A stretch of DNA of 64,000 nt. Source: a virus. Within the stretch, counting starts at the first letter, position 1, and the number at the start of each line of letters is the position of its first letter. Positions 1 to 11,799 of the stretch are shown in pieces. The notes beneath the pieces were generated by a model. The model searched no databases, was not told the origin of the DNA, and saw nothing but the letters and a program-made list of their open reading frames with translations. The translations under genes and the position numbers were made by a program. Location: positions 25,128 through 89,127 of IMG/VR virus record IMGVR_UViG_3300017917_002401; one strand, 5' to 3'.

Positions 1-2
1 CA

Positions 3-122
3 GAACTCTTAGACGTGAACCTAGAGCTACTAGAATCGCTGGAAAAGGTAAACAAAGGCGTACTCAAGTTAATCGAAGATAAATTGCGAGAAACTGACCC
101 TAAACCGCACCAGGCAGCGTAA
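3..122 (+). CDS. 3' end of a gene truncated by the window edge; probable A2-like DNA-binding paralog
   Basis: Hand translation ELLDVNLELLESLEKVNKGVLKLIEDKLRETDPKPHQAA* resembles the C-terminus of the ORF at 1502-1807 (ELFESLEKANHEVLEVL); followed by a terminator. Confidence 0.55.
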   Translation, partial: ELLDVNLELLESLEKVNKGVLKLIEDKLRETDPKPHQAA

Positions 123-139
123 ATTGCACTTAATTCGAC

Positions 140-175
140 AAAAGCCCACATAATTTCGGTTATGTGGGCTTTTTT
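140..175 (+). terminator. Rho-independent terminator
   Basis: AAAGCCCACATAA-tttcgg-TTATGTGGGCTTT followed by a T run. Confidence 0.85.
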
Positions 176-265
176 GCGTGTGTGTACGTGGTTTGTATAA
201 ATTGCTACAGTTTAGGAACACCGACCGTGTTTTGGCAGTTTAGGGTCAGTGTCTAGAAAAAGCAC

Positions 266-295
266 TTGACAAAACCGGTTTGGCACTGGTAAAAT
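266..295 (+). promoter_or_regulatory. sigma70-type promoter with no downstream ORF
   Basis: TTGACA-18-TAAAAT then GGCGC; close sequence relative of 2090-2118. Confidence 0.6.
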
Positions 296-340
296 GGCGC
301 AGGCCGGGTGTGGAATTTCCCATGTGGGCTTTTTTAAGGC

Positions 341-379
341 AAAACAAAGCCCCCACAGCATGCCTGCTTGGGGGCTTTG
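341..379 (-). terminator. Terminator ending the minus-strand ncRNA transcript
   Basis: Minus strand CAAAGCCCCCA...TGGGGGCTTTG-TTTT. Confidence 0.75.
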
Positions 380-620
380 AACGGATTGTGTTGTTGGGGA
401 TCCCTCCGTTTTTAGTGCTCGCTTCACGACTTACCGAGGGGCACCACCCCTGCTGACTGCATGACCCTAAACCGTGGCACCTTGGACCCCGACTAGGTTA
501 TTGGGGTTGTAGCCACTGGTAGGTGAGACTGTTTGGTTATCTGGGGCACCACCCACTGATGGAGGATTGTTAACGTACAACGCCCTAAACGACTACTTGA
601 GGTTTAACGACCACTGCAGT

Positions 621-719
621 TTAGGGTCGGGCAGGGTATACCGCACTGCCATGCTTTTAACGACTTAGGGTCGGACAGGGTATACCGCACTGCCATGCTT
701 TTAACGACTTAGGGTCGGA
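621..719. repeat. 44-bp tandem direct repeat, 2.25 copies
   Basis: TTAGGGTCGG(G/A)CAGGGTATACCGCACTGCCATGCTTTTAACGAC at 621-664 and 665-708, partial copy at 709-719. Confidence 0.95.
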
Positions 720-872
720 TTGGTAGTGGGTTATCTCCCAGGTTTCTTAAAGTCAACCACTCTAGAGCCAAGACCATTTAACGTCTGGTACCAGGTACGA
801 CGGTTCGGATATAGGCATTGCACGCCTTGGGTTACTCATTTCCAGCGGGCCGTGGCCGCGTGCTGGGTTTTC

Positions 873-981
873 ATCCAGACCCCAAGGTGTTGCTGGCTGA
901 GAAGGTGGGTCTAAGTCTTCTCGAACGCCAGCACTGCGTGCCTTGGAGTTTCGTGCCATTGCAGGCTACTCATCAGTGGAT
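873..981 (-). ncRNA. Hammerhead ribozyme (type I topology, extended stem III)
   Basis: Minus strand: stem I AUCCA (981-977)/UGGAU (877-873); core CUGAUGA (976-970); stem II GU(A)GCC-UGCAAU-GGCAC; GAAA (952-949); stem III ACUCCAAGG/CCUUGGGGU; cleavage triplet GUC (880-878). Confidence 0.85.
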
Positions 982-983
982 TT

Positions 984-1058
984 TGGTATCCGATATGGGT
1001 TACGATCCCATCTAGCCACCTTGAAAGGGTGGTGACCTCACCAGAAGTCGAATCGGAC
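984..1058 (-). tRNA. tRNA-Glu (anticodon UUC), CCA encoded
   Basis: Acceptor GUCCGAU/AUCGGAU + ACCA; anticodon arm CCACC-CUUUCAA-GGUGG; T arm AUGGG-AUCGUAA-CCCAU; 75 nt. Confidence 0.9.
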
Positions 1059-1265
1059 ATTGTAGGTTGGGCGGTGACTAGAGAATTCGGTCACCATTAA
1101 GTTGTTATCTGCCTAATTGCATACTCATAACACCCATTGATTAAAGCTGTCTCTAATCAATGGAGGCTAAGGGCTGTGGCTCGGTATTCCCCACAATTAA
1201 GACGTATCACGTAGCAGTAGTATATCGCTGTGACCGCTGTCACCCTGTCTAACTAATATATAATA

Positions 1266-1294
1266 ATTATACAGTATTTAAAGTAGTAAATCAA
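1266..1294 (-). promoter_or_regulatory. sigma70 promoter for the tRNA/ribozyme transcript
   Basis: TTGATT-17-TATAAT on the minus strand. Confidence 0.75.
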
Positions 1295-1302
1295 GAGAGA
1301 AA

Positions 1303-1436
1303 TTAGACAGGCGTTGCAATCAGACTAGCACTACAGGTGAGACGTCATTCAGTGACTGGTTTGCGTGGTAGGCTGCTGTTGCACAAGGGGCCGGCAACTC
1401 GTTTGCCATTCATTAAGGCCCTTCCCGACTGTCTAA
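1303..1436 (-). ncRNA. Candidate ~135-nt structured RNA
   Basis: Starts just after a promoter; ends pair (UUAGACAG/CUGUCUAA); internal GGGCC...GGCCC and GGCAA/UUGCC stems; no credible ORF. Confidence 0.45.
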
Positions 1437-1442
1437 GATATT

Positions 1443-1471
1443 ATTATACACTGAATGGGGTCGAAGATCAA
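1443..1471 (-). promoter_or_regulatory. sigma70 promoter
   Basis: TTGATC-17-TATAAT on the minus strand. Confidence 0.75.
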
Positions 1472-1501
1472 GTACGAATTTCCTGACCCTCAACCGCAGC
1501 A

Positions 1502-1807
1502 TCAAAGGTTAGCTGCCAAAACCTCCAGCACTTCGTGGTTGGCCTTTTCCAGAGACTCAAACAGCTCTGGGGGGACGCCACAAGCCTGTGCCAGTTTGTC
1601 CACCAGCTCACTCTTACGCACACGGGCAACACCCTTGGCACGAGTTTTGGGGGTGTACACACCCTCACGACTCAGTTTAGCAACCACGCTTCGCACCGAT
1701 TTGCCCAGCTTTTCTGCGAGCATTTCAGGGGTTGCGCCCGCCTTGTACTCGTTAACGAGTTCCAGGGTTTGGGCTTCGGTATAGTTTACAGTACGCTCAG
1801 TCATCAT
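1502..1807 (-). CDS. T5 A2-like HTH DNA-binding protein, paralog 1
   Basis: VNYTEAQT...LGKSVRSVVAKLSREGVY; AAAGGA RBS; own promoter TTGACG-17-TATAAT at 1875-1847. Confidence 0.7.
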   Translation of the reverse strand: MMTERTVNYTEAQTLELVNEYKAGATPEMLAEKLGKSVRSVVAKLSREGVYTPKTRAKGVARVRKSELVDKLAQACGVPPELFESLEKANHEVLEVLAANL

Positions 1808-1855
1808 ATGTCCTTTCAGTTGGTTTCTGCGCCGATTAAAGATTATATTATACAC

Positions 1856-1990
1856 TCACAAAGGAACATCGTCAAATTCAAAAAATTCGCTGTGACTGTT
1901 GGTAGCTTGGCGAATTTCGCGGACCTCGTGGTCTACAAATTCCGCATACCACGCTTCCTGATCAAATTTGAAAAATTCACTGTCTGCCAT
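1856..1990 (-). CDS. Small acidic protein (44 aa)
   Basis: MADSEFFKFDQE...SEFFEFDDVPL; AAGGA RBS; promoter TTGTGT-17-TATAAT at 2046-2018. Confidence 0.6.
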   Translation of the reverse strand: MADSEFFKFDQEAWYAEFVDHEVREIRQATNSHSEFFEFDDVPL

Positions 1991-2089
1991 TTGCCATTCC
2001 TTGTAATCAATATAAATATTATAGCCGAGACAACTCCACAACACAAGACCCGATTTCTGCGCGTGTGTGAACACAAATTGAAAATACAC

Positions 2090-2200
2090 TTGACAAACTA
2101 GGTTTCGCACTGTATAATGGGCGCGGCCACCATCAAGGTTTTGCACTTGAAGGTTTTGCACTGGCGCAGCGCGCTTGGTGGTGTGGTCTTTTGTTTTCAA
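2090..2200 (+). promoter_or_regulatory. sigma70 promoter followed by a hairpin and T-tract (candidate short RNA)
   Basis: TTGACA-17-TATAAT-GGGCGC; ACCATCAAG/CTTGGTGGT stem enclosing AAGGTTTTGCACT twice; TTTTGTTTT. Confidence 0.55.
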
Positions 2201-2292
2201 ATTTCAAAAAATGTGAGAATTGAATACAAAAGTAGTACGTGTTGTTTTTTAACCACAAAAGTGTAACAGTTTGTAAAATTTGCAGAAAACGC

Positions 2293-2424
2293 TTGACACG
2301 CGCGCCAATATTATGATATAATTTTGGCGCAGCCATGTAATACTTTTGTTTTCAATTTTACCTGAAAACAAAAGTATTACACCTGATTTTGGGCAAAAAT
2401 AAACCCCGATTATCTCGGGGTTTT
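2293..2424 (+). repeat. Intergenic element copy 1 (palindromic promoter + 19-bp hairpin + terminator)
   Basis: TTGACA-18-TATAAT-TTTGGCGC; hairpin 2336-2381; AAACCCCGA-TTATC-TCGGGGTTT 2401-2424. Confidence 0.9.
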
Positions 2425-2427
2425 GGT

Positions 2428-2667
2428 TTAATGATATTCTGGAGTTATAACCAGCGCCGAATCGGGAATATCTACAAAACGCTGTACAATATCAACAGGC
2501 CAGTTATAGTGATAAAAACAATCTTCGTCTAGATAATCGCCCATGCCATAAAGGGTTTTATAATATTCAGCGGCACGATCTATAATAATCGCATTAATAG
2601 AATCAATCCGCATACCATTATATTCAGGCATGAAAATGCCCAATTCAACAAAATCAAAACGAATCAT
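2428..2667 (-). CDS. Hypothetical protein
   Basis: ORF with GGAG RBS before MIRFDF. Confidence 0.6.
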   Translation of the reverse strand: MIRFDFVELGIFMPEYNGMRIDSINAIIIDRAAEYYKTLYGMGDYLDEDCFYHYNWPVDIVQRFVDIPDSALVITPEYH

Positions 2668-2715
2668 ATTATCTCCAGTTAATCGGGTTGATAATGGGGC
2701 AATATGCCCCATTAT

Positions 2716-3048
2716 TTACAGTGGCTTTGAATTAGCCAGTGCATCAAAAATCGCTTTCAGTGCCGATTTATTGGCTTTTGTCAGCGATTCAATATCATTT
2801 TCGGGCAATCGCAAAATTGCGCCGATTGCATCGGCATGAGCATCTTTTTTCACAACCGGCTCACCAGTCTTGGAAACATAAGTTTTCTTTTTGTAGACGC
2901 CTTCGCGCGACAGTTTCGCAACAACCGACCGAACAGATTTACCGACAGTTTCAGCGATTTGGTCAACACCAACACCAGCGACATAATCGGACACCATTTT
3001 AGCCGTTTGTTCTGCGGTATAATTGACAGGTTTGCTAGTCTTTTCCAT
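2716..3048 (-). CDS. T5 A2-like HTH DNA-binding protein, paralog 2
   Basis: VNYTAEQT...VGKSVRSVVAKLSREGVY...ESLTKANK; AAAGG RBS; upstream TTGACT/TATAAT promoter. Confidence 0.7.
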   Translation of the reverse strand: MEKTSKPVNYTAEQTAKMVSDYVAGVGVDQIAETVGKSVRSVVAKLSREGVYKKKTYVSKTGEPVVKKDAHADAIGAILRLPENDIESLTKANKSALKAIFDALANSKPL

Positions 3049-3130
3049 GGTATTACCTTTCAGGTTTTCCGCTTGCCCCATTGCTTGCGGTATGTGTCTA
3101 TTATAGCGGGTTTTGGGCAAAAAAGTCAAG

Positions 3131-3283
3131 TGTGCAAAAATACAACATAGGGACAAACACCTATTGACACGAGCCAAAATTATGTGGTATAATTTTGGCG
3201 CAGCCTTGTAATACTTTTGTTTTCAATTTTAATCAGAAACAAAAGTATTACACCGGGGCAAAATAAAAAGGGCCGAAGCCCTT
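3131..3283 (+). repeat. Intergenic element copy 2
   Basis: AAAAATACAACATAGGG..CCTATTGACA(3164)-18-TATAAT-TTTGGCGC; hairpin 3207-3252; terminator AAGGGC-CGAA-GCCCTT. Confidence 0.9.
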
Positions 3284-3494
3284 AAAAAAAGTTAATCAAT
3301 CCGATTACATTGGCAACAAAAAACGTGCCATTAAGTACACCAAGCGCACGATCCTTACGCTTAAAGGCCACAAAAAGCCAGCTTAGTGAACCCAAAGTAA
3401 ACAGCACATAACCAATTTGAAACATTTTGGTTGCAACAGCAAATGAACCCAAAATGCTAGTAAAAGTGCCAAACCAAGAAACAAAAGTAATCAT
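3282..3494 (-). CDS. Small membrane protein (3 hydrophobic segments)
   Basis: 70-aa hydrophobic ORF; ATGA overlap with the upstream gene. Confidence 0.7.
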   Translation of the reverse strand: MITFVSWFGTFTSILGSFAVATKMFQIGYVLFTLGSLSWLFVAFKRKDRALGVLNGTFFVANVIGLINFF

Positions 3495-3871
3495 TTTCGG
3501 GGAATCTCCATTGAATGAAATTTATCAGCGGGTAAACCGTAGTTTACCATAATTTCGCACCATTTGCTACCATGTCCACAACTTTTTTCGCTAGGCCCGA
3601 ACAAATTCCAGTCAGCCTGATGAATAATTTCATGCGGAAGTATTACATCTATCATTGTGTTAAATGTTTTGTTTCCGTGTTTGAAAAATTTGTAACCCAA
3701 TTCGATTACATTATCTTCTTGAAAACATTGCCCTGCACAACGCCAAAAGTAAGGATTCAGTTTTACTTTTGGCACATCGTATGCCATTAAAGTAGGATAA
3801 ATTTCAATAAGTGTATCCCAAATCATTACAGATTCGCGTTCGATCAGGGTTAACAGTTTTTTCTTGTCCAT
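3491..3871 (-). CDS. SprT-like zinc metalloprotease
   Basis: AGQC...ILPHEIIH...GHGSKW, the SprT HExxH + HG..W pattern. Confidence 0.8.
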   Translation of the reverse strand: MDKKKLLTLIERESVMIWDTLIEIYPTLMAYDVPKVKLNPYFWRCAGQCFQEDNVIELGYKFFKHGNKTFNTMIDVILPHEIIHQADWNLFGPSEKSCGHGSKWCEIMVNYGLPADKFHSMEIPRK

Positions 3872-3911
3872 AGCCTACATTATACACGCAAAACCAGACC
3901 ACACACGCCAA

Positions 3912-4070
3912 GTGCAAAAATACAACATAGGGGAAAACACCTATTGACACGGGCACAATTTTAATGATAAAATTGGCGCCCGGAATGTAATACTTTTGTT
4001 TTCAATTTTAATCCAAAACAAAAGTATTACATTGTGGTAAAATAAAACCCCGATTATCTCGGGGTTTTTT
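3912..4070 (+). repeat. Intergenic element copy 3
   Basis: TTGACA(3944)-18-TAAAAT-TGGCGC; hairpin 3984-4033; terminator identical to that of copy 1. Confidence 0.9.
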
Positions 4071-4323
4071 ATTTTCTTTTCGGAGCCAGTTTATAATAAA
4101 TGATAACAGCCAAAAAGATAATATTAGTTGTGTAATTAAGCAACAGCGGCAAATCCATTTTGGGCATAATATAAATAAATGTAAAGATTTCGCCAAACGA
4201 CCATAATAGCAAAAATCCCCAAGTTAATCCTGCCGATGATTTTGTTTTCCAAGATTCTATTGCCTGCGGTAATCCGCATAATGCTAGCATAATAGAGCCA
4301 AGCCAACCAATATTATCCATCAT
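4069..4323 (-). CDS. PQ-loop / SemiSWEET-like membrane protein
   Basis: IGWLGSIMLALCGLPQAIESWKTKSSAGL; three TM segments; 84 aa. Confidence 0.8.
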   Translation of the reverse strand: MMDNIGWLGSIMLALCGLPQAIESWKTKSSAGLTWGFLLLWSFGEIFTFIYIMPKMDLPLLLNYTTNIIFLAVIIYYKLAPKRK

Positions 4324-4436
4324 TTTAAAATCTCCGTTTCAGTTTGAATAATAAAAGGCTTTTTCTCAATTTCAGATTCTAGCCTTTTATCATTATATAA
4401 ATGCAAACAGAGGGCGATTATCCAAAGCGTTTTCAT
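4320..4436 (-). CDS. Small hypothetical protein (38 aa)
   Basis: Hand-translated MKTLWIIALCLHLY...; fills the gap between genes; G-rich RBS; overlaps the next start. Confidence 0.45.
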   Translation of the reverse strand: MKTLWIIALCLHLYNDKRLESEIEKKPFIIQTETEILK

Positions 4437-4452
4437 ATAATCGCCCCCGTTA

Positions 4453-5151
4453 TTATTTAGCGGTAAAATTATTTTTTACCTGAAAATCACGCCAGTTATA
4501 AGGGATGATTTTCTCGCGCCAATCGCGTTTTTTAAGAATATTAACCAAAATCGGCAATTCAAAATCTCGCGCATCTTCAAGAGCCGTATGAGGTTCGTCA
4601 ATAATTTGATTATTGATAAAACCCGCAACAATTTCGGCATTAGTTTGATAGGTCATATTGCCATTATCTGTAGCCTTATTGAATGCGTGATTTTCAAGGG
4701 CAAATTGACGATATTTGCGAGAATGGCAGATATTACCAACAGCCGCTTGCCAAAGGCAAAAACGATTATTAAACCCTGAAAGGTCAATATCAGTATTTGC
4801 ACATTTTGCAGTATCAAAAGCCAGATTATATGCGGTAAGTGTTGGATTATATTTGCCGATTGCTTGATTAAGCCATTTATTAATGGCATTAACAGAGGCA
4901 AGCAAACGTGTGCCATTATTCAACATATCATTATATTTTGCTTTTTTGGATTGTGCATATTCAAAAGACCAAATACCCTTAGCATTTTTATCATAGAATA
5001 AATCCATAGAATCAAAATGATTTTTGACCAGAACAGCGCAACTATTAAAAATCTGGCCTTCACGGTCGCAGATAATAGCGGCAAAATCAGCGACAGTATC
5101 GCCAATTGTGGTTTCAGTGTCAACGATACAGAAATATTGTTTTTTAGCCAT
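4453..5151 (-). CDS. DEDDh 3'-5' exonuclease
   Basis: Motifs DTETT, AYNLAFD, HTALEDA. Confidence 0.85.
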   Translation of the reverse strand: MAKKQYFCIVDTETTIGDTVADFAAIICDREGQIFNSCAVLVKNHFDSMDLFYDKNAKGIWSFEYAQSKKAKYNDMLNNGTRLLASVNAINKWLNQAIGKYNPTLTAYNLAFDTAKCANTDIDLSGFNNRFCLWQAAVGNICHSRKYRQFALENHAFNKATDNGNMTYQTNAEIVAGFINNQIIDEPHTALEDARDFELPILVNILKKRDWREKIIPYNWRDFQVKNNFTAK

Positions 5152-5310
5152 TTTGTTTTCAATTACCGGAAACCGCCGGAATTCGCGGATACCGCATAAC
5201 GTCTGCGGTATGAGTGTATTATAACGGGTTTTTGCCCATTGTGCCAAAATAAAGTGTAACAGTCAGACCAGATTGTTACAAATTTTTTGTTGTATTTTTC
5301 GCAAAACCCC

Positions 5311-5399
5311 TTGACACGGCCCAAAATTATATGTTATAATTTTGGCGCAAGTTTTGCAAACAAAAGTATTCATTTTTGTTTGCAAACCAAAGTGTTACA
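5311..5399 (+). repeat. Intergenic element copy 4 (variant hairpin)
   Basis: TTGACA-18-TATAAT-TTTGGCGC; TTTGCAAACAAAA/TTTTGTTTGCAAA hairpin 5353-5386. Confidence 0.85.
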
Positions 5400-5586
5400 A
5401 GTTATTTTCTTTAATAAAATCGTCAATGGCATTTTCTAGAGTTTTACCAGAATACCAATAACCGCCTATTTTATTAGAAAATATAGAATAATATGGGTCA
5501 AATTCATTTTCCTCCTCATCTTCATCTATATTATGATAATCAATTTTTAATTGATATTCTTTAATAATTGCAAAATAATCTCTCAT
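5395..5586 (-). CDS. Hypothetical acidic protein
   Basis: MRDYFAII... starts 1 nt after the upstream stop. Confidence 0.6.
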   Translation of the reverse strand: MRDYFAIIKEYQLKIDYHNIDEDEEENEFDPYYSIFSNKIGGYWYSGKTLENAIDDFIKENNL

Positions 5587-5587
5587 T

Positions 5588-6064
5588 TTAGTGGCCTTGT
5601 TTTGAGGGAACATAAACCCCACGGATATTAAACCGATCGCAAACAGCTTTCAAATATTGGACATTATCCTCATAAAATGTAAATTCAGCATTTGCAAATG
5701 GTTTCAGATTAAAGAATTTAGTTAATCCTGCGATTTTGAGTTTACCGCCTGAAATAGTATCACCATCAATACGGGAAATAATATAATCAGGTTCACCGAG
5801 AATATTGCGGATAAATGCATTATCAGCATCCCGCAAAACGCGGGCAGTAGCAATAATAACAAAACAATTTTCATCTTTTAAATCCGCTTTATATTGTTCG
5901 GCCAATGGCAGCAGAGAATCATCTTCTGCACGATATTCATTTTCGCGCCAATAGTTCAAGTCGATTCGTTCACCATTATCATCAACAATTGTACGGTAAC
6001 GGTGAAGGCTACAAACGATTGTACCATCCATGTCATAAATTGAAACCCGTTTGATCTTTGCCAT
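5588..6064 (-). CDS. HAD-superfamily phosphatase (PNK-phosphatase/nucleotidase-like)
   Basis: IYDMDGTI (motif I), ATAR (II), K (III), FYEDN (IV); GAGGA RBS. Confidence 0.85.
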   Translation of the reverse strand: MAKIKRVSIYDMDGTIVCSLHRYRTIVDDNGERIDLNYWRENEYRAEDDSLLPLAEQYKADLKDENCFVIIATARVLRDADNAFIRNILGEPDYIISRIDGDTISGGKLKIAGLTKFFNLKPFANAEFTFYEDNVQYLKAVCDRFNIRGVYVPSKQGH

Positions 6065-6132
6065 TTTGCAATCCTCTGTTTGTTGCGGTATGTCTAGATT
6101 ATACCCCAGTTTTCCCCGATTGACACACATTT

Positions 6133-6248
6133 GCGAAAATACAACATAGGGATAAACCCCTATTGACACGCCCCAAAATTATATGCTATAATTTTGGCGC
6201 AAAATTGAATACCTGAGTATTCAATTTGTTTTGCAAACAAAGGTATTA
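6133..6248 (+). repeat. Intergenic element copy 5 (variant hairpin)
   Basis: AAAATACAACATAGGGATAAACCCCTATTGACA(6163)-18-TATAAT-TTTGGCGC; AAATTGAATAC/GTATTCAATTT hairpin. Confidence 0.85.
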
Positions 6249-6578
6249 TTCTTCGTCAACGTCTGGTAAGTAAACCTCACGCAAACCAAAATGCTTTTCC
6301 ATTTTGCGCGCATATTTAATAAATTGTGGGCCGTGGGTTTCGGTTAATTTATTTTCTTCTTGCCATGCATGAATCAACTCATGGGCAACAAGTGTATCAA
6401 AATCACGGGTATTATCTTTATAAAAGATCGTGATATTATGTTCCTTTAGTTTACCCGTTTTATCTGAATATTCAGGTTCATATTCAGCATCAGCCCATTT
6501 ATTTTTACGGGTAACAATCCGCAAATTAACGGGTTTCTTCAAGCCCAAATAATGGATAAATTCATAAAGGTTTTTCAT
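6246..6578 (-). CDS. SprT-like HExxH metalloprotein
   Basis: LVAHELIHAWQ...THGPQF. Confidence 0.75.
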   Translation of the reverse strand: MKNLYEFIHYLGLKKPVNLRIVTRKNKWADAEYEPEYSDKTGKLKEHNITIFYKDNTRDFDTLVAHELIHAWQEENKLTETHGPQFIKYARKMEKHFGLREVYLPDVDEE

Positions 6579-6579
6579 A

Positions 6580-6711
6580 TCATGCCCCAGTCATCATTTG
6601 AAAATAATCATTAAATTCTTCGTCAGTCCAAACCCATGCAGGGCACATATTCATAAGCGCATCATAATATGTGCCCGACATATTCCAAACAATATAATTG
6701 TTTTTGTTCAT
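6580..6711 (-). CDS. Small hypothetical protein (43 aa)
   Basis: Hand-translated MNKNNYIVWN...; ATGA overlap with the upstream ORF. Confidence 0.5.
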   Translation of the reverse strand: MNKNNYIVWNMSGTYYDALMNMCPAWVWTDEEFNDYFQMMTGA

Positions 6712-6869
6712 CGGTCTGCAAGCCTTTTCAAAACGTCGATGTTATCCCAGAGTATAGCATAAAGCATCTCTTGGCACAAGTCGTAAAATTCTTTTTTCTC
6801 GGCATCGGTGGCCACGTCCTCACGCATGAGGCAGAGCAGGAATTGGTAACGGTCTTTGTTTGTCATCAT
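6708..6869 (-). CDS. Small hypothetical protein (53 aa)
   Basis: Hand-translated MMTNKDRYQFLLCL...VLKRLADR; directly after a TATAAT box. Confidence 0.55.
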   Translation of the reverse strand: MMTNKDRYQFLLCLMREDVATDAEKKEFYDLCQEMLYAILWDNIDVLKRLADR

Positions 6870-6909
6870 GCCTCTATTATATCACAAAACACCAGACACG
6901 CGCACGTTT

Positions 6910-7045
6910 GTAAAAATACAACATAGGGATAAACCCCTATTGACACGCGCTCCAATATTATGGTATAATATTGGCGCCTGCGCTGTAATACCTTTGTTTT
7001 CAATTTGTGTTGAAAACAAAGGTATTACAAGGGGCTTTCGCCCCT
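6910..7045 (+). repeat. Intergenic element copy 6
   Basis: TTGACA(6940)-18-TATAAT-ATTGGCGC; 20-bp hairpin 6984-7029; terminator AGGGGC-TTTC-GCCCCT. Confidence 0.9.
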
Positions 7046-7049
7046 GTAA

Positions 7050-7373
7050 TCAGGCTTTCTCAGCCTTGATAAAATCGGCAATCTTTGCCAATGCCGTTTT
7101 GTTAGCTTTGGTCAGTGATTCCGTATCGGCCTCAGTCAGGCCCAGAGCAGAACCGATGTAATCGGCCCATTCGTCTTTTTTCACAACAGCCTCACCAGTT
7201 TTAGTGGTGTAGGTTTTCTTTTTGTAAACACCCTCACGCGACAGTTTAGCAACAACAGAACGAACCGATTTGCCCAGTGTTTCAGCAATAGCCTCTACAG
7301 TCACGCCAGTGGTATAGTCTCCTACCATCTTGGCAGTTTGTTCCGGGGTGTAATTCACAGTTTTAGCAGTCAT
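7050..7373 (-). CDS. T5 A2-like HTH DNA-binding protein, paralog 3
   Basis: VNYTPEQT...LGKSVRSVVAKLSREGVY...ESLTKANK; AGGAG RBS. Confidence 0.7.
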   Translation of the reverse strand: MTAKTVNYTPEQTAKMVGDYTTGVTVEAIAETLGKSVRSVVAKLSREGVYKKKTYTTKTGEAVVKKDEWADYIGSALGLTEADTESLTKANKTALAKIADFIKAEKA

Positions 7374-7406
7374 TTAAAAATCTCCTGAAAAGTCAAGGTT
7401 AAAAAA

Positions 7407-7613
7407 TCAATCAAGTTTGTTAAGACGTTCAGCCTTATCAAGTTCCATATCATACACCATTTTAACAAGATATGCAAGCATCAAGACACAAGCGCCAATG
7501 CCTACATTCACAGGGCCAAACAGTGTAAGTAGCTTAGCGATAACAAAGCCAGATACAATGGCAGTGCCAATGAGCCAAGCAACATTAAACAGTGCAGTTT
7601 GTTTCGGGGTCAT
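7407..7613 (-). CDS. Small 2-TM membrane protein
   Basis: Two hydrophobic segments; AAGGA RBS. Confidence 0.65.
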   Translation of the reverse strand: MTPKQTALFNVAWLIGTAIVSGFVIAKLLTLFGPVNVGIGACVLMLAYLVKMVYDMELDKAERLNKLD

Positions 7614-7625
7614 GGTTTCATCCTT

Positions 7626-7718
7626 TCAAGGTTTCATCACAAAAACAAAGTATAACACAAAGGGCAAGGCAATGCAAGCGGCAAAACCCAGTGCATCAAA
7701 AAATTCTCGCTTATTCAT
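7626..7718 (-). CDS. Small membrane peptide (30 aa)
   Basis: MNKREFFDALGFAACIALPFVLYFVFVMKP with GGAG RBS. Confidence 0.5.
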   Translation of the reverse strand: MNKREFFDALGFAACIALPFVLYFVFVMKP

Positions 7719-7872
7719 ACCAAATATCTCCAACAATTTTTCCATCAACAAACACAAAATAAATTGTACAATAACCAGAACGTGCAGAATAGTTATTGTT
7801 GCCATGATGCACAACATCGTATGCGCCCATGTCACGCTTAAGAATCGCTACCAGTGCATCAACGTGTTGCAT
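7711..7872 (-). CDS. Hypothetical protein (53 aa)
   Basis: AAGGA RBS before MQHVDAL; TATAAT upstream. Confidence 0.6.
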   Translation of the reverse strand: MQHVDALVAILKRDMGAYDVVHHGNNNYSARSGYCTIYFVFVDGKIVGDIWYE

Positions 7873-8160
7873 TTGTGTTTCCTTGTTGTCCATGTGCTCA
7901 ATTATACATGGATTATGCGCTAGTGCAAGCATTTTTCTAGAATTTTTACAAATTGTTACATCTTAGCTAGTTGGTTCACAATTTACTTAGGAAACAAAAG
8001 TACACAGACCAGGGGCGGTTAGTAGACCAAAGTTTACACACATGCCTGGGGACCCACCGGCACGGAAACTATATGGGATTTTTTCAACATTCAATAAGGT
8101 GCCAAATCTGCTCAGGCACAGCCTGACCCTAAACTGCAACAAGCTATCACAAGCCGTCGT

Positions 8161-8203
8161 AACCCACCCAACCACCCCCAACCACCCCAACCACCCCCAC
8201 CCC
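8161..8203. repeat. C-rich short tandem repeat (ACCACCCC(C)A); G-runs on the minus strand
   Basis: AACCCACCCAACCACCCCCAACCACCCCAACCACCCCCACCC. Confidence 0.85.
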
Positions 8204-8225
8204 AAGCAGCCACAAAATTTTTGAC

Positions 8226-8254
8226 TTGATCCACACATCCTAACCTGTTATAAT
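8226..8254 (+). promoter_or_regulatory. Promoter of the terminase operon
   Basis: TTGATC-17-TATAAT. Confidence 0.75.
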
Positions 8255-8276
8255 TGCCCAAGAGGAGACCAATTTT

Positions 8277-8753
8277 ATGAGTACCCATTTACCTGCGGAG
8301 GTTGTCAATATCTCCCCCGAGGCACTGGAAGTGTCTAACTGCTACCTACAACTACAAGACGCCCGACAAGTAGCCGATGAATTAGGCTTACCTATTGAAC
8401 AAGTTACCGATATTCTTGGCCGTCGTGAGGTCAAGCGTTATATTGACCAAGTTTTCTTTGATACCGGCTACAACAATCGTTTTTTAATGCGTCGTGCAAT
8501 GGACGCACTTATTAAAAAGAAATTTAGTGAGCTTGATGAGTCGGATACTGGTTCGTCAAAAGACATTGCCGAATTATTGGCCATGTCGCATAAAATGTCA
8601 ATGGACCTCTTAGACCGTGAGATTCAGCTTGAGAAAATTCGTAGCGGTCCTGGTGGCCCACAGAAGCAAGTTAACGTACAAATCAACGAAGGCCTAGACG
8701 GGTCGAAATACTCGCAACTTGTACAACGCCTGGTCAGTGGAGAAGGAATTTAA
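8277..8753 (+). CDS. terS: Terminase small subunit (T5-like)
   Basis: ISPEALEV..YL N-terminal HTH; directly upstream of terL; GAGGAG RBS. Confidence 0.85.
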   Translation: MSTHLPAEVVNISPEALEVSNCYLQLQDARQVADELGLPIEQVTDILGRREVKRYIDQVFFDTGYNNRFLMRRAMDALIKKKFSELDESDTGSSKDIAELLAMSHKMSMDLLDREIQLEKIRSGPGGPQKQVNVQINEGLDGSKYSQLVQRLVSGEGI

Positions 8754-10054
8754 TGCTGCTAATATCTCGTTCGGACATAGATCGTGATGCTATAACTGAG
8801 TTTGATGCTAGTCGCCGATTTATTAAACTACCTATTGTTAACTACTTAAAGCTGCTAGATATCTGGGACACGGTAAACCGTCCACAAATGGCCCTAATCA
8901 ACGCGGTGAATTCACCCAAGTACCGTTTCATTTGCGCCGCGCTAGCGCGCCGTCTAGGAAAAACTTATATAGCCAACGTAATCGGCCAGTTAGTGACACT
9001 GGTCCCGGGGTCGAATGTACTTATTATTTCACCCAACTATAACCTTTCGTCAATTTCATTCGACTTGCAACGTAAGCTGATCCGTCACTTTGACCTAGAA
9101 GTTGCGCGCGATAACCTAAAAGATAAAATAATTGAGCTGGAAAATGGAAGTACCATTCGCATGGGTAGTTTGTCAACGGTAGATAGTTGTGTTGGTCGCA
9201 GCTACGACTTGATTATTTTTGATGAAGCTGCACTAGGTGAGGGCGGTGAGGCTGCGTTTAACGTTGCGCTACGTCCTACTCTGGACAAGCCCAATGCAAA
9301 AGCCATTTTTATTAGTACACCCCGTGGTAAGCAGAACTGGTTTAGTCAATTTTGGAATCGCGGCTTTGACCCTAACTTTCCGGAGTGGGTTAGCCTGCAA
9401 GCTGATTATACTGAAAACACTCGCATGGCTGAGTCAGACGTGGCAGAAGCTCGTCGTGCTATGTCGCGAGCAGAATTTGAGCAAGAGTACATGGCTTCGT
9501 TTACCACATATGAGGGTCAGATTTTTAATCTAGCCGAATCAGATGTAATCGAAGACTTGCCTGAACACGTTATTAGTGGCAATAGTTGTGAATACATTGC
9601 TGGTTGTGACCCTGGCTATCGCGACTATACTGCGTTTGTGGTATTAGCATATTCGTGGATTGATGACTGCTTTTATGTACTAGACGAATACTTGGATAAT
9701 GAAAAAACCACATCAGGGCATGCTGAAGAGTTTCAGAAGCTGGTAGGCAAGTGGGGTGTTGAGATTGTGTTTATTGATAGTGCTGCTGCACAGTTTGCTG
9801 CTGACCTTGCCTATACCTACAATATTGCAACAACCAAAGCCAAAAAAGATGTGCTACCTGGAATTGCTTATGCTCAAACACTTGTGGGTCAAGGTCGCCT
9901 GAAAATCGCCAAGCACTGTACTCATGTACTAGCAATGATGGATCAGTATCGCTGGGATGACAAAGAAGGGCTACAGCGTGAGCGTCCAAAACACGATGAC
10001 TATTCGCACATGGCAGACGCACTGCGATATGCTCTCTATAGTTATACCATTTAA
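8753..10054 (+). CDS. terL: Terminase large subunit
   Basis: Walker A ARRLGKT, Walker B LIIFDEAA, ISTPRG, nuclease GCDPG and HMADALRY. Confidence 0.95.
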   Translation: MLLISRSDIDRDAITEFDASRRFIKLPIVNYLKLLDIWDTVNRPQMALINAVNSPKYRFICAALARRLGKTYIANVIGQLVTLVPGSNVLIISPNYNLSSISFDLQRKLIRHFDLEVARDNLKDKIIELENGSTIRMGSLSTVDSCVGRSYDLIIFDEAALGEGGEAAFNVALRPTLDKPNAKAIFISTPRGKQNWFSQFWNRGFDPNFPEWVSLQADYTENTRMAESDVAEARRAMSRAEFEQEYMASFTTYEGQIFNLAESDVIEDLPEHVISGNSCEYIAGCDPGYRDYTAFVVLAYSWIDDCFYVLDEYLDNEKTTSGHAEEFQKLVGKWGVEIVFIDSAAAQFAADLAYTYNIATTKAKKDVLPGIAYAQTLVGQGRLKIAKHCTHVLAMMDQYRWDDKEGLQRERPKHDDYSHMADALRYALYSYTI

Positions 10055-10121
10055 TTGTTTATTTTAGCACAGTCGAACTGTGCTGTCAAGTCAACCAGTT
10101 ATGGTATAAAAAATTTTATCA

Positions 10122-10150
10122 TTGACTATTTGCTGCTCTTAGAGTATAAT
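10122..10150 (+). promoter_or_regulatory. sigma70 promoter
   Basis: TTGACT-17-TATAAT. Confidence 0.7.
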
Positions 10151-10173
10151 ACTAGGAATGCACAGGTACATGT

Positions 10174-10605
10174 ATGGCCAAAAACACCAATAAAAGAATC
10201 CCTGTAAAATGGGTTCGAGACAGGGCAAAAAAAGCCTATGAAACTCGTGACTGTTGCGATATCTGTGGAACAGATAAAGATCTGGAGCTCCACCACACAC
10301 ATTCTATCACTATTTTACTTGAATCATGGGCTACTCGTCAAGGTTACGACATTTCCACTGATGAAGGCATTTTAGCTGTTCGTGATGAGTTTATAGCGGA
10401 GCACCATAAAGAACTGTATGAAGACGTGTATACCTTGTGTAATTTCCATCACGTCAAACTACATGGTGTATATGGTAAAGCCCCGCCTCCAGGCTCTGAA
10501 TCCAAGCAAGCACGCTGGGTTGCGTTACAGCGAGAAAAGTTTCTATCGGGTGGGCGTGAAATACCACAACAAAGTCATGGTTCGTCTTTTAGTGAATTCT
10601 ACTAG
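10174..10605 (+). CDS. HNH-type (putative nicking) endonuclease
   Basis: CDIC...LELHH...TLCNFHHVKLH; same position between terminase and portal as the T5 putative nickase. Confidence 0.8.
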   Translation: MAKNTNKRIPVKWVRDRAKKAYETRDCCDICGTDKDLELHHTHSITILLESWATRQGYDISTDEGILAVRDEFIAEHHKELYEDVYTLCNFHHVKLHGVYGKAPPPGSESKQARWVALQREKFLSGGREIPQQSHGSSFSEFY

Positions 10606-10614
10606 GAACGAATA

Positions 10615-11799
10615 ATGAATTGGTTTACCAAAAGTTACGACTGGATGCGCGAAAAGCTTAATCCAGCACAAGATCGTATTGCCTATCAAGAAGGTTTGTA
10701 CATAGGCAGTACACAAAAGATTACTTACCAACAAGCTTTTCAAAAGCTTGAGGTTGTTAACCGCAGCGTATCAATGCTGGTTAACGCATGCGCTAGTCTA
10801 GACTACGATGTAAAAGACAAACAAAATGATGGAGTTGTTGTAGGTGTTCGTCAAAAGACCCTAAACAACTTACTTAATTTCAAACCAAACCCATATCAAT
10901 CAATACAAGAATTTCGTCAAGCAATTTTCCAAGACTTGGTAATTGAGGGTAACGTATTTGTTTATTTTGATGGTACTTTTATGTACCACTTGCCGGCACA
11001 AAACGTACAAATTCTAACAGATACCAAAACGTTTATCCGCGGATATCGTTACATGGGTACTATTGATTTCAAAGAAGAAGACGTATTTCACTTCCGTGAT
11101 TTACACGCACAATCTATCTACCGTGGCAGCAGCCGCTTAGAAAGTGCACAGCGTAGTATTGATATACTATACGCCATGGAAGATTTCCAGGAAAAATTCT
11201 TTGATAATGGTGCGATTTTTGGTTTAGTGCTAACAAGTGATAATACATTATCACAAGTTGCCAAAGAAAAAACAATATCCAACTGGGTACAGCGTTATAA
11301 CGCTAAGAATGGTGGCAAGCGTCCAATCATTCTTGACAGCGGTTTAAAACCTACTCAAGTTGGTCAAGGCACGTTTAAAGATCTGGACTTTGACGAGTCT
11401 ATTAAAACGCATAATGATCGTATTGCGGTAAGTGTAGGCGTTCCACCAATCCTTCTAGACGGTGGTAATAACGCTAACATTAGTCCTAACCTACGATTGT
11501 TTTATCTGGAAACTGTAATGCCAATTGTTAGAAAATATGTTTCTAGCCTTGAGCGTTATTTCGGATATGATATTGAGGCAATTACTGCTAATGTATCAGC
11601 TTTACAGCCTGATATCAAAGAAATTGCACAATATCACGCAACTCTTGTAAATGGCGGCATTATCACTCCAAATGAAGCCAGAAAAGAACTTCGTTATGAG
11701 CCTATACCGGGCAATGACGACTTAAGAGTACCTGCTAATATTGCGGGTAGTGCTGCAGATCCATCGCAAGGTGGAAAACCGCCGCAACCAAAGGAGTAA
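10615..11799 (+). CDS. Portal protein (HK97 family)
   Basis: LLNFKPNPYQ, GNVFVY, VGVPPILL, GIITPNEARKEL. Confidence 0.93.
   Translation: MNWFTKSYDWMREKLNPAQDRIAYQEGLYIGSTQKITYQQAFQKLEVVNRSVSMLVNACASLDYDVKDKQNDGVVVGVRQKTLNNLLNFKPNPYQSIQEFRQAIFQDLVIEGNVFVYFDGTFMYHLPAQNVQILTDTKTFIRGYRYMGTIDFKEEDVFHFRDLHAQSIYRGSSRLESAQRSIDILYAMEDFQEKFFDNGAIFGLVLTSDNTLSQVAKEKTISNWVQRYNAKNGGKRPIILDSGLKPTQVGQGTFKDLDFDESIKTHNDRIAVSVGVPPILLDGGNNANISPNLRLFYLETVMPIVRKYVSSLERYFGYDIEAITANVSALQPDIKEIAQYHATLVNGGIITPNEARKELRYEPIPGNDDLRVPANIAGSAADPSQGGKPPQPKE

What the first reader, a model, noticed from the sequence alone, without database searches (positions are those of the whole stretch)
341..1471. A ~1.1-kb ORF-free, promoter- and terminator-bounded ncRNA operon
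Seen: two consensus sigma70 promoters on the minus strand (1471-1443, 1294-1266) whose transcripts both carry UUAGACAG near their starts. A terminator lies at 379-341 and there is no credible ORF in between. The region is GC-richer than its neighbours and packed with hairpins, one tRNA, a hammerhead and several repeated motifs. Inference: a multi-module RNA locus in the probable first-injected region, possibly supplying decoy/anti-defence RNAs or a tRNA replacement early in infection.
Basis: partly seen in the sequence, partly recalled or inferred. Interest (0 to 1): 0.8.

Follow-up and report, generated by a model that had tools for sequence, protein, structure and literature searches.

The report
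Hammerhead-cut phage non-coding RNA operon
This gene-free 1.1-kb stretch of an uncultured pond phage is a real operon of folded non-coding RNAs, with a self-cutting hammerhead ribozyme, an odd tRNA and an uncatalogued knotted RNA motif, whose job is still unknown.

Summary
Window 341-1471 (minus strand) is an ORF-free, promoter-to-terminator RNA locus.

It is conserved in related roughly 100-kb uncultured phages: 76 IMG/VR loci were fetched through the flanking gene.

Parts supported by compensatory base changes:
- RNA1, about 135 nt.
- A roughly 75-nt three-way-junction plus pseudoknot motif, present as two paralogs B and C.
- A type I hammerhead with a long stem III that cuts after window 878.
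- Hairpins in the roughly 535-nt downstream RNA.

Both promoters are present in 37 of 37 distinct homologs.

The tRNA-Glu(UUC) is an optional insert, found in 11 of 54 loci. The window copy has an unusual T-loop.

Rfam 15 reports none of these parts in the window at gathering score. The hammerhead scores 17.8 bits against a threshold of 48.5.

The "first-injected region" and decoy or anti-defence ideas remain untested.

The same RNA family was already noted by this scan in three other genomes.

Verdict: a real multi-module ncRNA operon. The hammerhead is a known kind; the other modules are uncatalogued; the function is unknown.

The parts
1459..1495 (-). Hairpin just after the stop codon of the upstream gene. 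Its loop and 3' arm hold the -35 box of P1, and its 5' arm is a copy of the dispersed GUUKAGGGUCAG motif.
   Evidence: MFE -20.6 kcal/mol, z -3.2. The arms change together in homologs, for example GTTTAGGGTCAG/CTGACCCAAAC, GGGGACACA/TGTGTCCCC and TTAGGGTCAC/GTGACCCA (read from the alignment).
1443..1471 (-). Promoter P1 (TTGATC-17-TATAAT)
   Evidence: Present in 37 of 37 distinct homologs.
1304..1436 (-). RNA1, a roughly 135-nt Y-shaped RNA. It has a closing stem UUAGACAGUCG/CGNCUGUCUAA, a hairpin with a 5' bulge CUUAAUGAAU, and a long irregular hairpin. A U-rich tract follows.
   Evidence: Alignment A3 (33 distinct sequences): 78.8% of cells paired against 32-40% when the partners are slid; 21 of 39 pairs have compensatory changes. 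Single-sequence MFEs agree on the architecture.
1266..1294 (-). Promoter P2 (TTGATT-17-TATAAT)
   Evidence: 37 of 37. Module B starts 9-22 nt after the -10 box in 33 of 35 sequences.
1171..1245 (-). Module B, a three-way junction with a pseudoknot: GGGU-GAC-AG-CGG-[variable hairpin]-..G.UC-UUAAU-UGUGG-..-CCG-AG-CCACA-GCCC
   Evidence: Alignment A1 (35 distinct sequences): 97% paired, 9 of 19 pairs compensatory, 0 of 500 shuffles reach it, slid controls 32-47%. The pseudoknot CGG:CCG has two independent compensatory changes. Model R1 scores the window copy 77.9 bits.
1069..1135 (-). Module C, a paralog of B: GGGU-GUUAU-GAG-[hairpin]-AUAAC-AA-CUUAAU-GGUGAC-..CUC.AG-UCACC-GCCC
   Evidence: R1 scores it 26.2 bits, E 6e-4. 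It has the same architecture, with the pseudoknot read as GAG:CUC (read). It is conserved in 7 of the 10 other loci aligned and in L132.
984..1058 (-). tRNA-Glu (anticodon UUC) with an encoded CCA end. It has a 4-nt variable loop and the T-loop AUCGUAA (A at position 54, U at 58).
   Evidence: ARAGORN. Its MFE is a cloverleaf, -27.7 kcal/mol. Rfam's tRNA model does not report it. Present in 11 of 54 homologous loci. It is 60 of 75 identical to the genome's other tRNA-Glu.
873..983 (-). Type I hammerhead ribozyme. Stem I 5' strand AAAUCCA; core CUGAUGA; stem II 969-953; GAAA; stem III base ACUCCAAGG/CCUUGGGGU enclosing a roughly 60-nt extension; GUC; cut after C878; stem I 3' strand UGGAU (877-873).
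   Evidence: Alignment A2 (49 distinct sequences): the core is invariant, 86.5% of cells are paired against 24-46% slid, and 12 of 19 pairs are compensatory, in all three stems. The cleavage triplet is GUC in 44 and GUA in 5.
345..877 (-). The roughly 535-nt RNA 3' of the cut. It holds a conserved domain at 848-752, a 44-nt tandem repeat at 708-621 plus a third diverged unit, and a conserved 3' domain at 530-400.
   Evidence: Conserved blocks are shared with L051, L014, L028, L002, L005, L132 and others. Two covarying hairpins lie in 848-752. Three helices in 530-400 are 76% paired against 33-50% slid.
336..379 (-). Intrinsic terminator: a 15-bp hairpin followed by UUUGUUUUG.
   Evidence: Homologs keep a hairpin plus CUUUUGUUUUG, with paired changes in the stem.

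Best explanation
This is a conserved operon of non-coding RNAs of an uncultured, distantly T5-like siphophage.

Shown:
- Two sigma70-type promoters and an intrinsic terminator bound a minus-strand unit with no credible ORF.
- The unit holds RNA1, two paralogous pseudoknotted three-way-junction modules (B and C), an optional tRNA-Glu(UUC), a complete type I hammerhead, and a structured RNA of about 535 nt.
- Each of these, except the tRNA's function, is backed by compensatory base changes in homologs.

Inferred:
- Host RNA polymerase transcribes the unit.
- P1 gives RNA1. RNA1 may end at the U-tract after its closing stem.
- P2 gives a transcript that starts with module B.
- The hammerhead cuts itself after C878. 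The 5' part (B, C, tRNA, ribozyme) then ends in a 2',3'-cyclic phosphate, and the 3' RNA starts with a 5'-hydroxyl.
- Host tRNA-processing enzymes free the tRNA.

Guessed: what the RNAs do. The most likely role is that abundant, nuclease-resistant folded RNAs bind or sequester a host or phage protein. Every module carries the recurring 'helix followed by (C/G)UUAA(U/A)' element.
For: - The locus is conserved without an ORF. blastn finds blocks at 65-85% identity in most of the 76 loci fetched through the flanking gene.
- The promoters are kept in 37 of 37 distinct sequences.
- Module B: 97% paired, 9 compensatory pairs including the pseudoknot, 0 of 500 shuffles reach it.
- Model R1 gives a hit of 40 bits or more in 44 of 66 sources, and 13 weaker second copies including window 1139-1065.
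- The hammerhead core is invariant and all three stems covary in 49 distinct sequences.
- A regex for the hammerhead is met in 49 of 62 loci that have at least 1200 nt downstream.
- RNA1: 21 of 39 pairs are compensatory.
- The 3' RNA has covarying hairpins.
- G-U pairs occur in many helices, for example UG in 31 of 35 at pair 8-102 of module B. This fixes the minus strand as the RNA strand.
- The terminator is supported.
- Weak: contigs of an aquatic metatranscriptome library (X21) cover 946-1049 (across the tRNA/hammerhead joint, with 2-5 differences), 1020-1137, and 1166-1281 plus 1421-1492.
Against: - There is no direct RNA evidence for this phage. The X21 records are contigs, mostly from relatives, and the tool warns that DNA can be present in such a library.
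- Rfam reports no family at gathering score. The hammerhead reaches only 17.8 of 48.5 bits, through the wrong (type III) topology.
- Modules B and C are not unusually stable as single sequences (z 0.01 and -0.92).
- The structures for RNA1 and the 3' domain were derived from member sequences, which favours them in the slid control.
- Only 12-14 distinct sequences back the 3' RNA helices.
- Loci are not independent samples, and several are near-identical.
- A consensus plus-strand promoter at 266-295 points into the locus, so antisense transcription cannot be excluded.
- Nothing shows a function.
Confidence: 0.8

Rival explanations
1. Anti-defence decoy locus. The RNAs would mimic targets or antidotes of host defences. 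The atypical tRNA-Glu would replace or shield host tRNA-Glu from an anticodon or T-loop nuclease. The 44-nt tandem repeats would act as a pseudo-antitoxin of a type III toxin-antitoxin system. Modules B and C would be tRNA-shaped decoys. This is compatible with the best explanation and would give it a function.
For: - The tRNA-Glu(UUC) duplicates an anticodon already in the main cluster, differs from it at 15 of 75 positions, and has A54/U58 in the T-loop.
- It is an optional insert, as accessory counter-defence genes often are: 11 of 54 loci.
- The 44-nt unit is tandem in the window, and its copy number varies among homologs (read).
- RNA mimicry of ToxI by a phage is in print (PMC3475682; I saw only the search listing and the start of the abstract).
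Against: - No similarity to any Rfam antitoxin or other family at E up to 10.
- No host is known.
- The core modules (RNA1, B, hammerhead) are far more conserved than accessory counter-defence genes usually are.
- Nothing here tests defence.
Confidence: 0.2
2. Modules B and C are themselves processing elements: a new self-cleaving ribozyme class, or tRNA-like RNase P substrates. The locus would then be a 'ribozyme island' that dices the transcript.
For: - The modules are small (about 75 nt) and pseudoknotted, with invariant junction nucleotides (GGGU, UUAAU, AG, GCCC).
- They lie next to a hammerhead, directly before the tRNA or the hammerhead.
- P1 stacked on P3, with the loop of P3 pairing into P2, resembles the acceptor/T-arm and elbow of a tRNA. 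This is my reading of the structure.
- From recall, not read here: new ribozyme classes were found by searching near hammerheads (Weinberg et al. 2015).
Against: No cleavage data. No match to any ribozyme family in Rfam. P1 plus P3 is only 9 bp, against about 12 bp in a tRNA acceptor/T stack. There is no CCA.
Confidence: 0.12
3. The roughly 535-nt 3' RNA is a large ornate RNA that works as a multimeric scaffold or cage, like ROOL and GOLLD. The hammerhead would give it a defined 5' end.
For: - It is phage-encoded, long, many-hairpinned and next to a tRNA. ROOL and GOLLD are phage or prophage RNAs 'often near tRNA islands', and GOLLD linkers sometimes hold tRNAs (bioRxiv 10.1101/2024.12.08.627333, passages read).
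- A conserved hairpin loop at 803-785 holds the palindrome GGUACC. GUAC is kept in 13 of 14 sequences, so it could form a kissing dimer.
Against: - No Rfam hit to ROOL or GOLLD.
- The 3' RNA is the least conserved part. In the short loci (L053-L059, L062 and L063) the terminator follows the hammerhead at once, so it is dispensable for the family.
Confidence: 0.1
4. The conservation is at the DNA level: a replication origin or an array of binding sites for the flanking helix-turn-helix paralogs. The RNA structures would be incidental.
For: - The 11-mer GTTTAGGGTCA is strongly over-represented, lies on both strands, and sits at unit borders: 95-105, 238-248, 462-472, 1484-1494 and 8124-8134.
- The locus lies between paralogous DNA-binding-like genes (phrog_1725, E 1e-5 to 1e-7).
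- There are tandem repeats.
Against: Compensatory changes that keep pairing, including strand-specific G-U pairs, occur in five separate modules. There is an intact hammerhead core and a tRNA. DNA-level function may explain the dispersed motif but not the modules.
Confidence: 0.05

Closest known systems
Type I hammerhead ribozymes in phage and prophage transcripts (Perreault et al. 2011, PMC3088659; Rfam clan CL00010)
   Same: CUGANGA and GAAA cores. Three covarying stems. GUC or GUA cleavage triplet. Stem I open. Located in a phage intergenic region. The paper lists hammerheads in the intergenic regions of phages PaP3 and Bcep176, and multi-ribozyme prophage transcripts (passages read).
   Different: Stem III carries a conserved extension of about 60 nt, so no Rfam model reaches threshold. 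The ribozyme is one module of an ORF-free RNA operon rather than flanking protein genes.
ROOL and GOLLD large ornate phage RNAs (Kretsch et al., bioRxiv 10.1101/2024.12.08.627333)
   Same: Phage-encoded, long, highly structured, of unknown function, near tRNAs, and sometimes with a tRNA inside (passages read).
   Different: No sequence or structure match. This locus is a chain of separable small modules with its own internal promoter and a ribozyme. Multimerisation is untested.
Pseudo-ToxI repeats of phage PhiTE (Blower et al. 2012, PMC3475682)
   Same: A phage carries short tandem RNA repeats in a non-coding region.
   Different: Only two and a bit repeats of 44 nt. No similarity to known antitoxin RNAs. 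No toxin partner is known. I saw the paper only as a listing and abstract start.
The same uncatalogued family, as noted earlier by this scan in three other uncultured T5-like freshwater phage genomes (e1-6068948, e1-5946999, e1-6060701)
   Same: ORF-free modular RNA with a hammerhead that Rfam misses, between paralogous small DNA-binding genes.
   Different: Those are AI notes on other DNA. This window adds the pseudoknotted B and C motif with pair counts, the tRNA-Glu insert and the 44-nt repeat.

Membership tests
Hammerhead ribozyme, type I | Conserved core CUGANGA ... GAAA | tested here: met
   Invariant in 49 of 49 distinct sequences apart from the N position. The window has CUGAUGA at 976-970 and GAAA.
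Hammerhead ribozyme, type I | Three helices around the core, kept by compensatory changes | tested here: met
   Stem I has 3 of 5 pairs, stem II 4 of 5, and stem III 5 of 9 with changes on both sides. 86.5% of cells are paired against 24-46% slid.
Hammerhead ribozyme, type I | Cleavage triplet NUH, with U16.1 paired to A15.1 | tested here: met
   GUC in 44 and GUA in 5 of 49 sequences. The A-U pair at columns 35-109 is invariant.
Hammerhead ribozyme, type I | Reaches the gathering score of an Rfam hammerhead model | tested here: not met
   The best hit is RF00008 at 17.8 bits against 48.5, and only over the core. No hits in 13 homologous loci. The long stem III explains the miss.
Hammerhead ribozyme, type I | Self-cleavage activity | not testable with these tools
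   Needs in vitro transcription.
tRNA-Glu | Cloverleaf with a 7-bp acceptor stem, anticodon UUC and a CCA end | tested here: met
   ARAGORN. The MFE is a cloverleaf. Acceptor stems covary among 11 homologs.
tRNA-Glu | Canonical T-loop (U54, U55, C56, A58) and a score above Rfam RF00005 gathering | tested here: not met
   The window T-loop is AUCGUAA (A54, U58). There is no RF00005 hit. Five homologs with UUCGAnU or AUCGAAA loops score 48-62 bits.
ROOL / GOLLD / other Rfam large RNAs | Match to the family covariance model | tested here: not met
   No hit at E up to 10 in window 1-2500.
Type III antitoxin-like repeat array | Tandem direct repeats of about 35-55 nt | tested here: met
   Two 44-nt copies at 98% identity, at 621-708.
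Type III antitoxin-like repeat array | Similarity to a known antitoxin RNA, or a cognate toxin | tested here: not met
   No Rfam hit. No toxin gene was sought in a host, because the host is unknown.
Sigma70-dependent transcription unit | -35 and -10 hexamers with a 16-18 bp spacer, and an intrinsic terminator | tested here: met
   The -35 boxes match 4 of 6.

The most novel reading that the evidence does not exclude
The B and C motif (GGGU ... UUAAU ... AG ... GCCC; a three-way junction locked by a loop-to-internal-loop pseudoknot) would be a new functional RNA class: a self-cleaving ribozyme, or a high-affinity aptamer for a host factor. The hammerhead-released 3' RNA would be a new large ornate RNA that self-assembles through its palindromic GGUACC loop. 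The locus would then be an RNA-only 'machine' that a whole lineage of freshwater phages makes early in infection.
Probability: 0.15. Interest if true: 0.85.

Novelty: new variant of a known kind. Interest (0 to 1): 0.66.

Why it matters
Phage non-coding RNAs other than tRNAs are poorly charted. The few large ones known (ROOL, GOLLD) turned out to form unprecedented RNA cages.

This locus offers several things in one short, promoter-bounded piece that could be cloned as it is:
- a hammerhead in a defined natural context, which bears on the open question of what bacterial and phage hammerheads are for;
- at least three uncatalogued structured RNA families with clean covariation;
- a natural tRNA variant with a swapped 54-58 T-loop pair.

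The family is common in freshwater viral contigs. In IMG/VR, 250 stretches encode the flanking gene's relatives, and 53 hold the exact module B core.

Tried and rejected
- **Rfam.** At gathering score there were 0 hits on the whole window. At E up to 10 on 1-2500 and on 860-1260 there were only chance-level hits.
- **Cultured phages.** blastn of window 200-1600 against 50,697 phage records found one match, and only over the tRNA: Rhodobacter phage RcXuper tRNA-Glu, 86% over 59 nt. tblastn of the flanking 117-aa protein found none. So no cultured relative carries the locus, and I could not confirm the 'A2-like' label of earlier notes. PHROGs gives only phrog_1725 'DNA binding protein'.
- **Exact 25-mer of the window tRNA in IMG/VR.** 0 matches.
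- **Type III hammerhead topology** (Rfam's partial alignment, which would cut inside the tRNA acceptor stem). Rejected: there is no stem III partner, and the stem I hairpin GGAU/AUCC is not conserved.
- **'One hammerhead, many substrates'.** The dispersed GUUUAGGGUC sites looked like extra substrates of the ribozyme. Rejected for this phage, because its own ribozyme arms read CCUUGGGGUC/UGGAU and would mismatch the other sites (read).
- **Other hammerhead cores.** A strict regex found none elsewhere in the genome. The regex also misses the window's own ribozyme, which has a bulged stem II.
- **Scan of 185,579 prokaryote genomes with a hammerhead pattern.** Two matches. One is a chance match inside a Roseibium coding region. 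The other is a 1-kb contig of this phage family binned into an uncultured MAG. This gave no host clue.
- **RNAalifold on the MAFFT alignment of RNA1.** It found only 4 pairs. I then mapped the MFE of one member onto the alignment, which biases the slid control in its favour.
- **Sequencing runs.** Only one run (X1, pond metagenome, probably the source sample) holds the stretch (0.97 of words). All others hold 0.07 or less. The runs laid were contigs, so no RNA ends, strand or level could be read. Parts without cover mean nothing.
- **ORFs.** Six frames of 49-71 aa gave no Pfam hit. The three of them sent to PHROGs gave no hit.
- **Literature.** Searches for hammerhead + bacteriophage + tRNA + metagenom*, for hammerhead / T5-like / Demerecviridae / noncoding RNA, and for GOLLD + ROOL + tRNA + phage listed no paper describing this locus. 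Supplements were closed, so lists of hammerhead hits in Perreault et al. 2011 could include relatives that I could not see.
- **Not used.** Protein homology, structure, complex and atlas tools, and the metagenome-contig scan.
Full report
**Context**

The window is bases 25128-89127 of an 89,127-bp linear virus record. GC is 40.5%, CheckV completeness is 84%, and no end repeats were found.

PHROGs names a large terminase, a fused protease/major head protein, a 1566-aa tape measure and tail fibre proteins. The head protein is about 35% identical to those of Aeromonas and Vibrio phages of 112-126 kb. From recall, those are T5-like.

The genome has 23 tRNA genes by ARAGORN. Twenty-two lie in bases 214-11731, including a tRNA-Glu(UUC). 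One more tRNA-Glu(UUC) lies at window 1058-984.

The stretch sits between convergent genes. A plus-strand gene ends at window 122. A minus-strand gene of 101-117 aa ends at 1502. Both belong to one small family with a weak match to phrog_1725, 'DNA binding protein'.

**The observation**

The terminator is a 15-bp hairpin followed by a U-tract.

The longest open frames inside are 49-71 aa. None has a Pfam hit, and none of the three sent to PHROGs has a hit. GC is raised only over 301-1050. The tRNA is called by ARAGORN.

**Relatives**

Searching IMG/VR with the flanking protein gave 250 confirmed stretches, of which 76 loci were kept. blastn of the window's minus strand against them shows several conserved blocks:
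- Window 1500-1166 is conserved at about 64-75% identity in most loci.
- Further blocks lie at 1137-1064, 1109-862, 846-750, 530-408, 306-235 and 183-140.

The non-coding gap is 0.6-1.5 kb in relatives, and its modules come and go.

**Promoters**

In 37 distinct sequences both TTGAnn-N16-18-TATAAT sites are present, 37 of 37. UUAGACAG follows P1 in 30 of 37 but follows P2 in only 2 of 37, so the shared start is not a family feature.

P1 sits inside a hairpin whose arms change together in relatives.

**RNA1 (1436-1304)**

Single-sequence folds of five members agree on a closing stem, a hairpin with a CUUAAUGAAU bulge and a long irregular hairpin.

On the 33-sequence alignment, 78.8% of cells pair against 32-40% with slid partners, and 21 of 39 pairs show changes on both sides. 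A U-rich tract follows the closing stem, so RNA1 may be a separate product. That is an inference.

**Modules B and C**

Module B (1245-1171) has an almost invariant core. I read four elements:
- P1: GGGU/GCCC.
- P2: GAC/G.UC, carrying a variable hairpin.
- P3: UGUGG/CCACA.
- A pseudoknot, CGG in the P2 internal loop pairing with CCG in the P3 loop.

On 35 distinct sequences 97% of cells pair, 9 of 19 pairs have compensatory changes, and no shuffle of 500 reaches any measure. Slid controls give 32-47%. The pseudoknot has two independent double changes (G-C to A-U at two positions), and P2 has two covarying pairs.

A covariance model without the pseudoknot gives hits of 40 bits or more in 44 of 66 sources. 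It also gives 13 weaker second copies, among them window 1139-1065 at 26.2 bits, E 6e-4.

That copy, module C, has the same plan with different helices, and its pseudoknot reads GAG:CUC. A third subtype (GGGUAAACC...) exists in relatives.

Shared by all subtypes are GGGU, (C/U)UUAAU, AG before the 3' strand of P3, and GCC(C).

The exact module B core occurs in 53 IMG/VR stretches. Those I recognised are contigs already fetched, and I did not inspect the others. In the window's own genome R1 finds only copy B at its threshold.

**tRNA-Glu**

It folds as a cloverleaf, encodes CCA, and has a 4-nt variable loop and a U13-G22 pair. Its T-loop is AUCGUAA. It is 60 of 75 identical to the main-cluster tRNA-Glu.

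It is present at the same place in 11 of 54 loci scanned, lying exactly between module C and the hammerhead (compare).

Rfam's tRNA model passes in 5 of 13 loci searched (48-62 bits), but not in the window copy or in L014. Both of those have the A54 type of loop.

Acceptor stems differ among homologs by paired changes, so the insert evolves as a tRNA.

**Hammerhead**

Directly after the tRNA comes AAAUCCA-CUGAUGA-[stem II]-GAAA-C. About 90 nt further on comes CCUUGGGGUC-UGGAU.

In 49 distinct sequences the core is invariant and the cleavage triplet is GUC (44) or GUA (5). The stems covary as follows:
- Stem I: CCU/AGG against CCA/UGG.
- Stem II: 4 of 5 pairs.
- Base of stem III: 5 of 9 pairs.
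- Overall 86.5% paired, against 24-46% slid.

The order (stem I 5' strand, core, stem II, GAAA, stem III hairpin, NUH, stem I 3' strand) is type I. The cut falls after window 878.

Rfam sees only the core, at 17.8 bits, through its type III model, because stem III holds a conserved extension of about 60 nt. A regex for the whole ribozyme is met in 49 of 62 loci with at least 1200 nt downstream. Four more loci have it further away.

**The 3' RNA (877-345)**

Relatives share these blocks:
- AGGAYGAAAACCCA.
- A roughly 100-nt domain (848-752).
- One to three units beginning CCGACCCYAAGUCGUUAAAAG. The window has two exact 44-nt copies plus a diverged third.
- A 3' domain (530-400).
- The terminator.

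Two hairpins in 848-752 covary in 14 sequences. Three helices in 530-400 pair in 76% of cells against 33-50% slid, in 12 sequences.

In short relatives (L053-L059, L062 and L063) the terminator follows the hammerhead at once. So this part is variable.

**A recurring element**

A helix followed by (C/G)UUAA(U/A) appears in RNA1, B, C, the 848-752 domain and each repeat unit (read). It is the only feature common to all modules and is a candidate recognition site.

**Strand**

Many helices hold G-U pairs that would be A-C on the other strand. The RNA is therefore the minus strand.

**Expression**

One pond metagenome holds the stretch (0.97 of words) and is probably its source.

Contigs of an aquatic metatranscriptome library cover the tRNA/hammerhead joint, module C, and module B with both promoters of a relative. 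These are contigs, may include DNA, and show no ends. This is a weak hint only.

**What it is**

It is an RNA-only operon. The hammerhead is a member of a known class in a new setting. RNA1, modules B and C, and the 3' RNA are not in Rfam 15. Three literature searches listed no description of them.

Hammerheads in phage intergenic regions and multi-ribozyme prophage transcripts are in print (PMC3088659, passages read). So are large phage RNAs near tRNAs (bioRxiv 10.1101/2024.12.08.627333, passages read).

This scan had already met the family in three other genomes. I checked its central claim, a real hammerhead that Rfam misses, independently on this window.

**Function**

Function is not shown.
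- The hammerhead most likely separates a 5' part (B, C, tRNA) from the 3' RNA. The end chemistries it leaves resist common exonucleases; that point is established knowledge of hammerhead products.
- The tandem second promoter would raise the dose of everything after RNA1.
- A protein-binding or sequestering role is my preferred guess.
- Decoy, ribozyme and scaffold readings are kept as rivals.
- The 'first-injected' placement cannot be judged on a partial linear contig.

Noticed in passing
window 2293-2383, 3164-3254, 3943-4033 (+): Three copies of a plus-strand consensus promoter (TTGACA-18-TATAAT/TAAAAT), each followed by a 19-bp AT-rich perfect hairpin. They lie antisense to the minus-strand gene cassettes. 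Earlier notes list six to eight such units.
   Followed up: no
window 266-295 (+): A plus-strand promoter (TTGACA-18-TAAAAT, 11 of 12) points into the locus's terminator from the far side. The block 306-235 is conserved in many relatives, and L054 has the same layout. It would give a very short RNA, or antisense read-through.
   Followed up: partly
window 95-105(-), 238-248(+), 462-472(-), 1484-1494(-, 1 mismatch), 8124-8134(-), 60409-60419(+); genome 24047(+): The 11-mer GTTTAGGGTCA, or its complement TGACCCTAAAC, occurs exactly 5 times in 64 kb, mostly at borders of transcription units. It is the same sequence as the 3' strand of hammerhead stem III in most relatives.
   Followed up: partly
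window 84-108 and 235-259: A 25-nt inverted repeat (84% complementary) brackets the terminator (140-173) of the converging plus-strand gene. L054 has the same arrangement.
   Followed up: no
genome 7024-7123 (outside the window): ARAGORN calls a 100-nt tRNA of undetermined identity with a four-base anticodon (tacc) inside the main tRNA cluster.
   Followed up: no
window 803-785 (-): The conserved hairpin loop holds the palindrome GGUACC. GUAC is kept in 13 of 14 homologs. It is a possible kissing-loop dimerisation site.
   Followed up: no
L105 and L120 (IMG/VR contig 3300043436_004120, 100,412 bp): The exact module B core was found in two separate stretches fetched from this one contig. L010, from the same contig, ends at the contig's last base. 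Where L120 lies in the contig is not known, so I could not tell whether the contig ends overlap or carry a terminal repeat that includes this locus.
   Followed up: no
L132 (CALLKD010000025.1, 1036 bp): A 1-kb contig binned into an uncultured bacterial MAG is entirely this phage locus: module C, hammerhead, 3' RNA and terminator. It is probably a binning artefact.
   Followed up: partly
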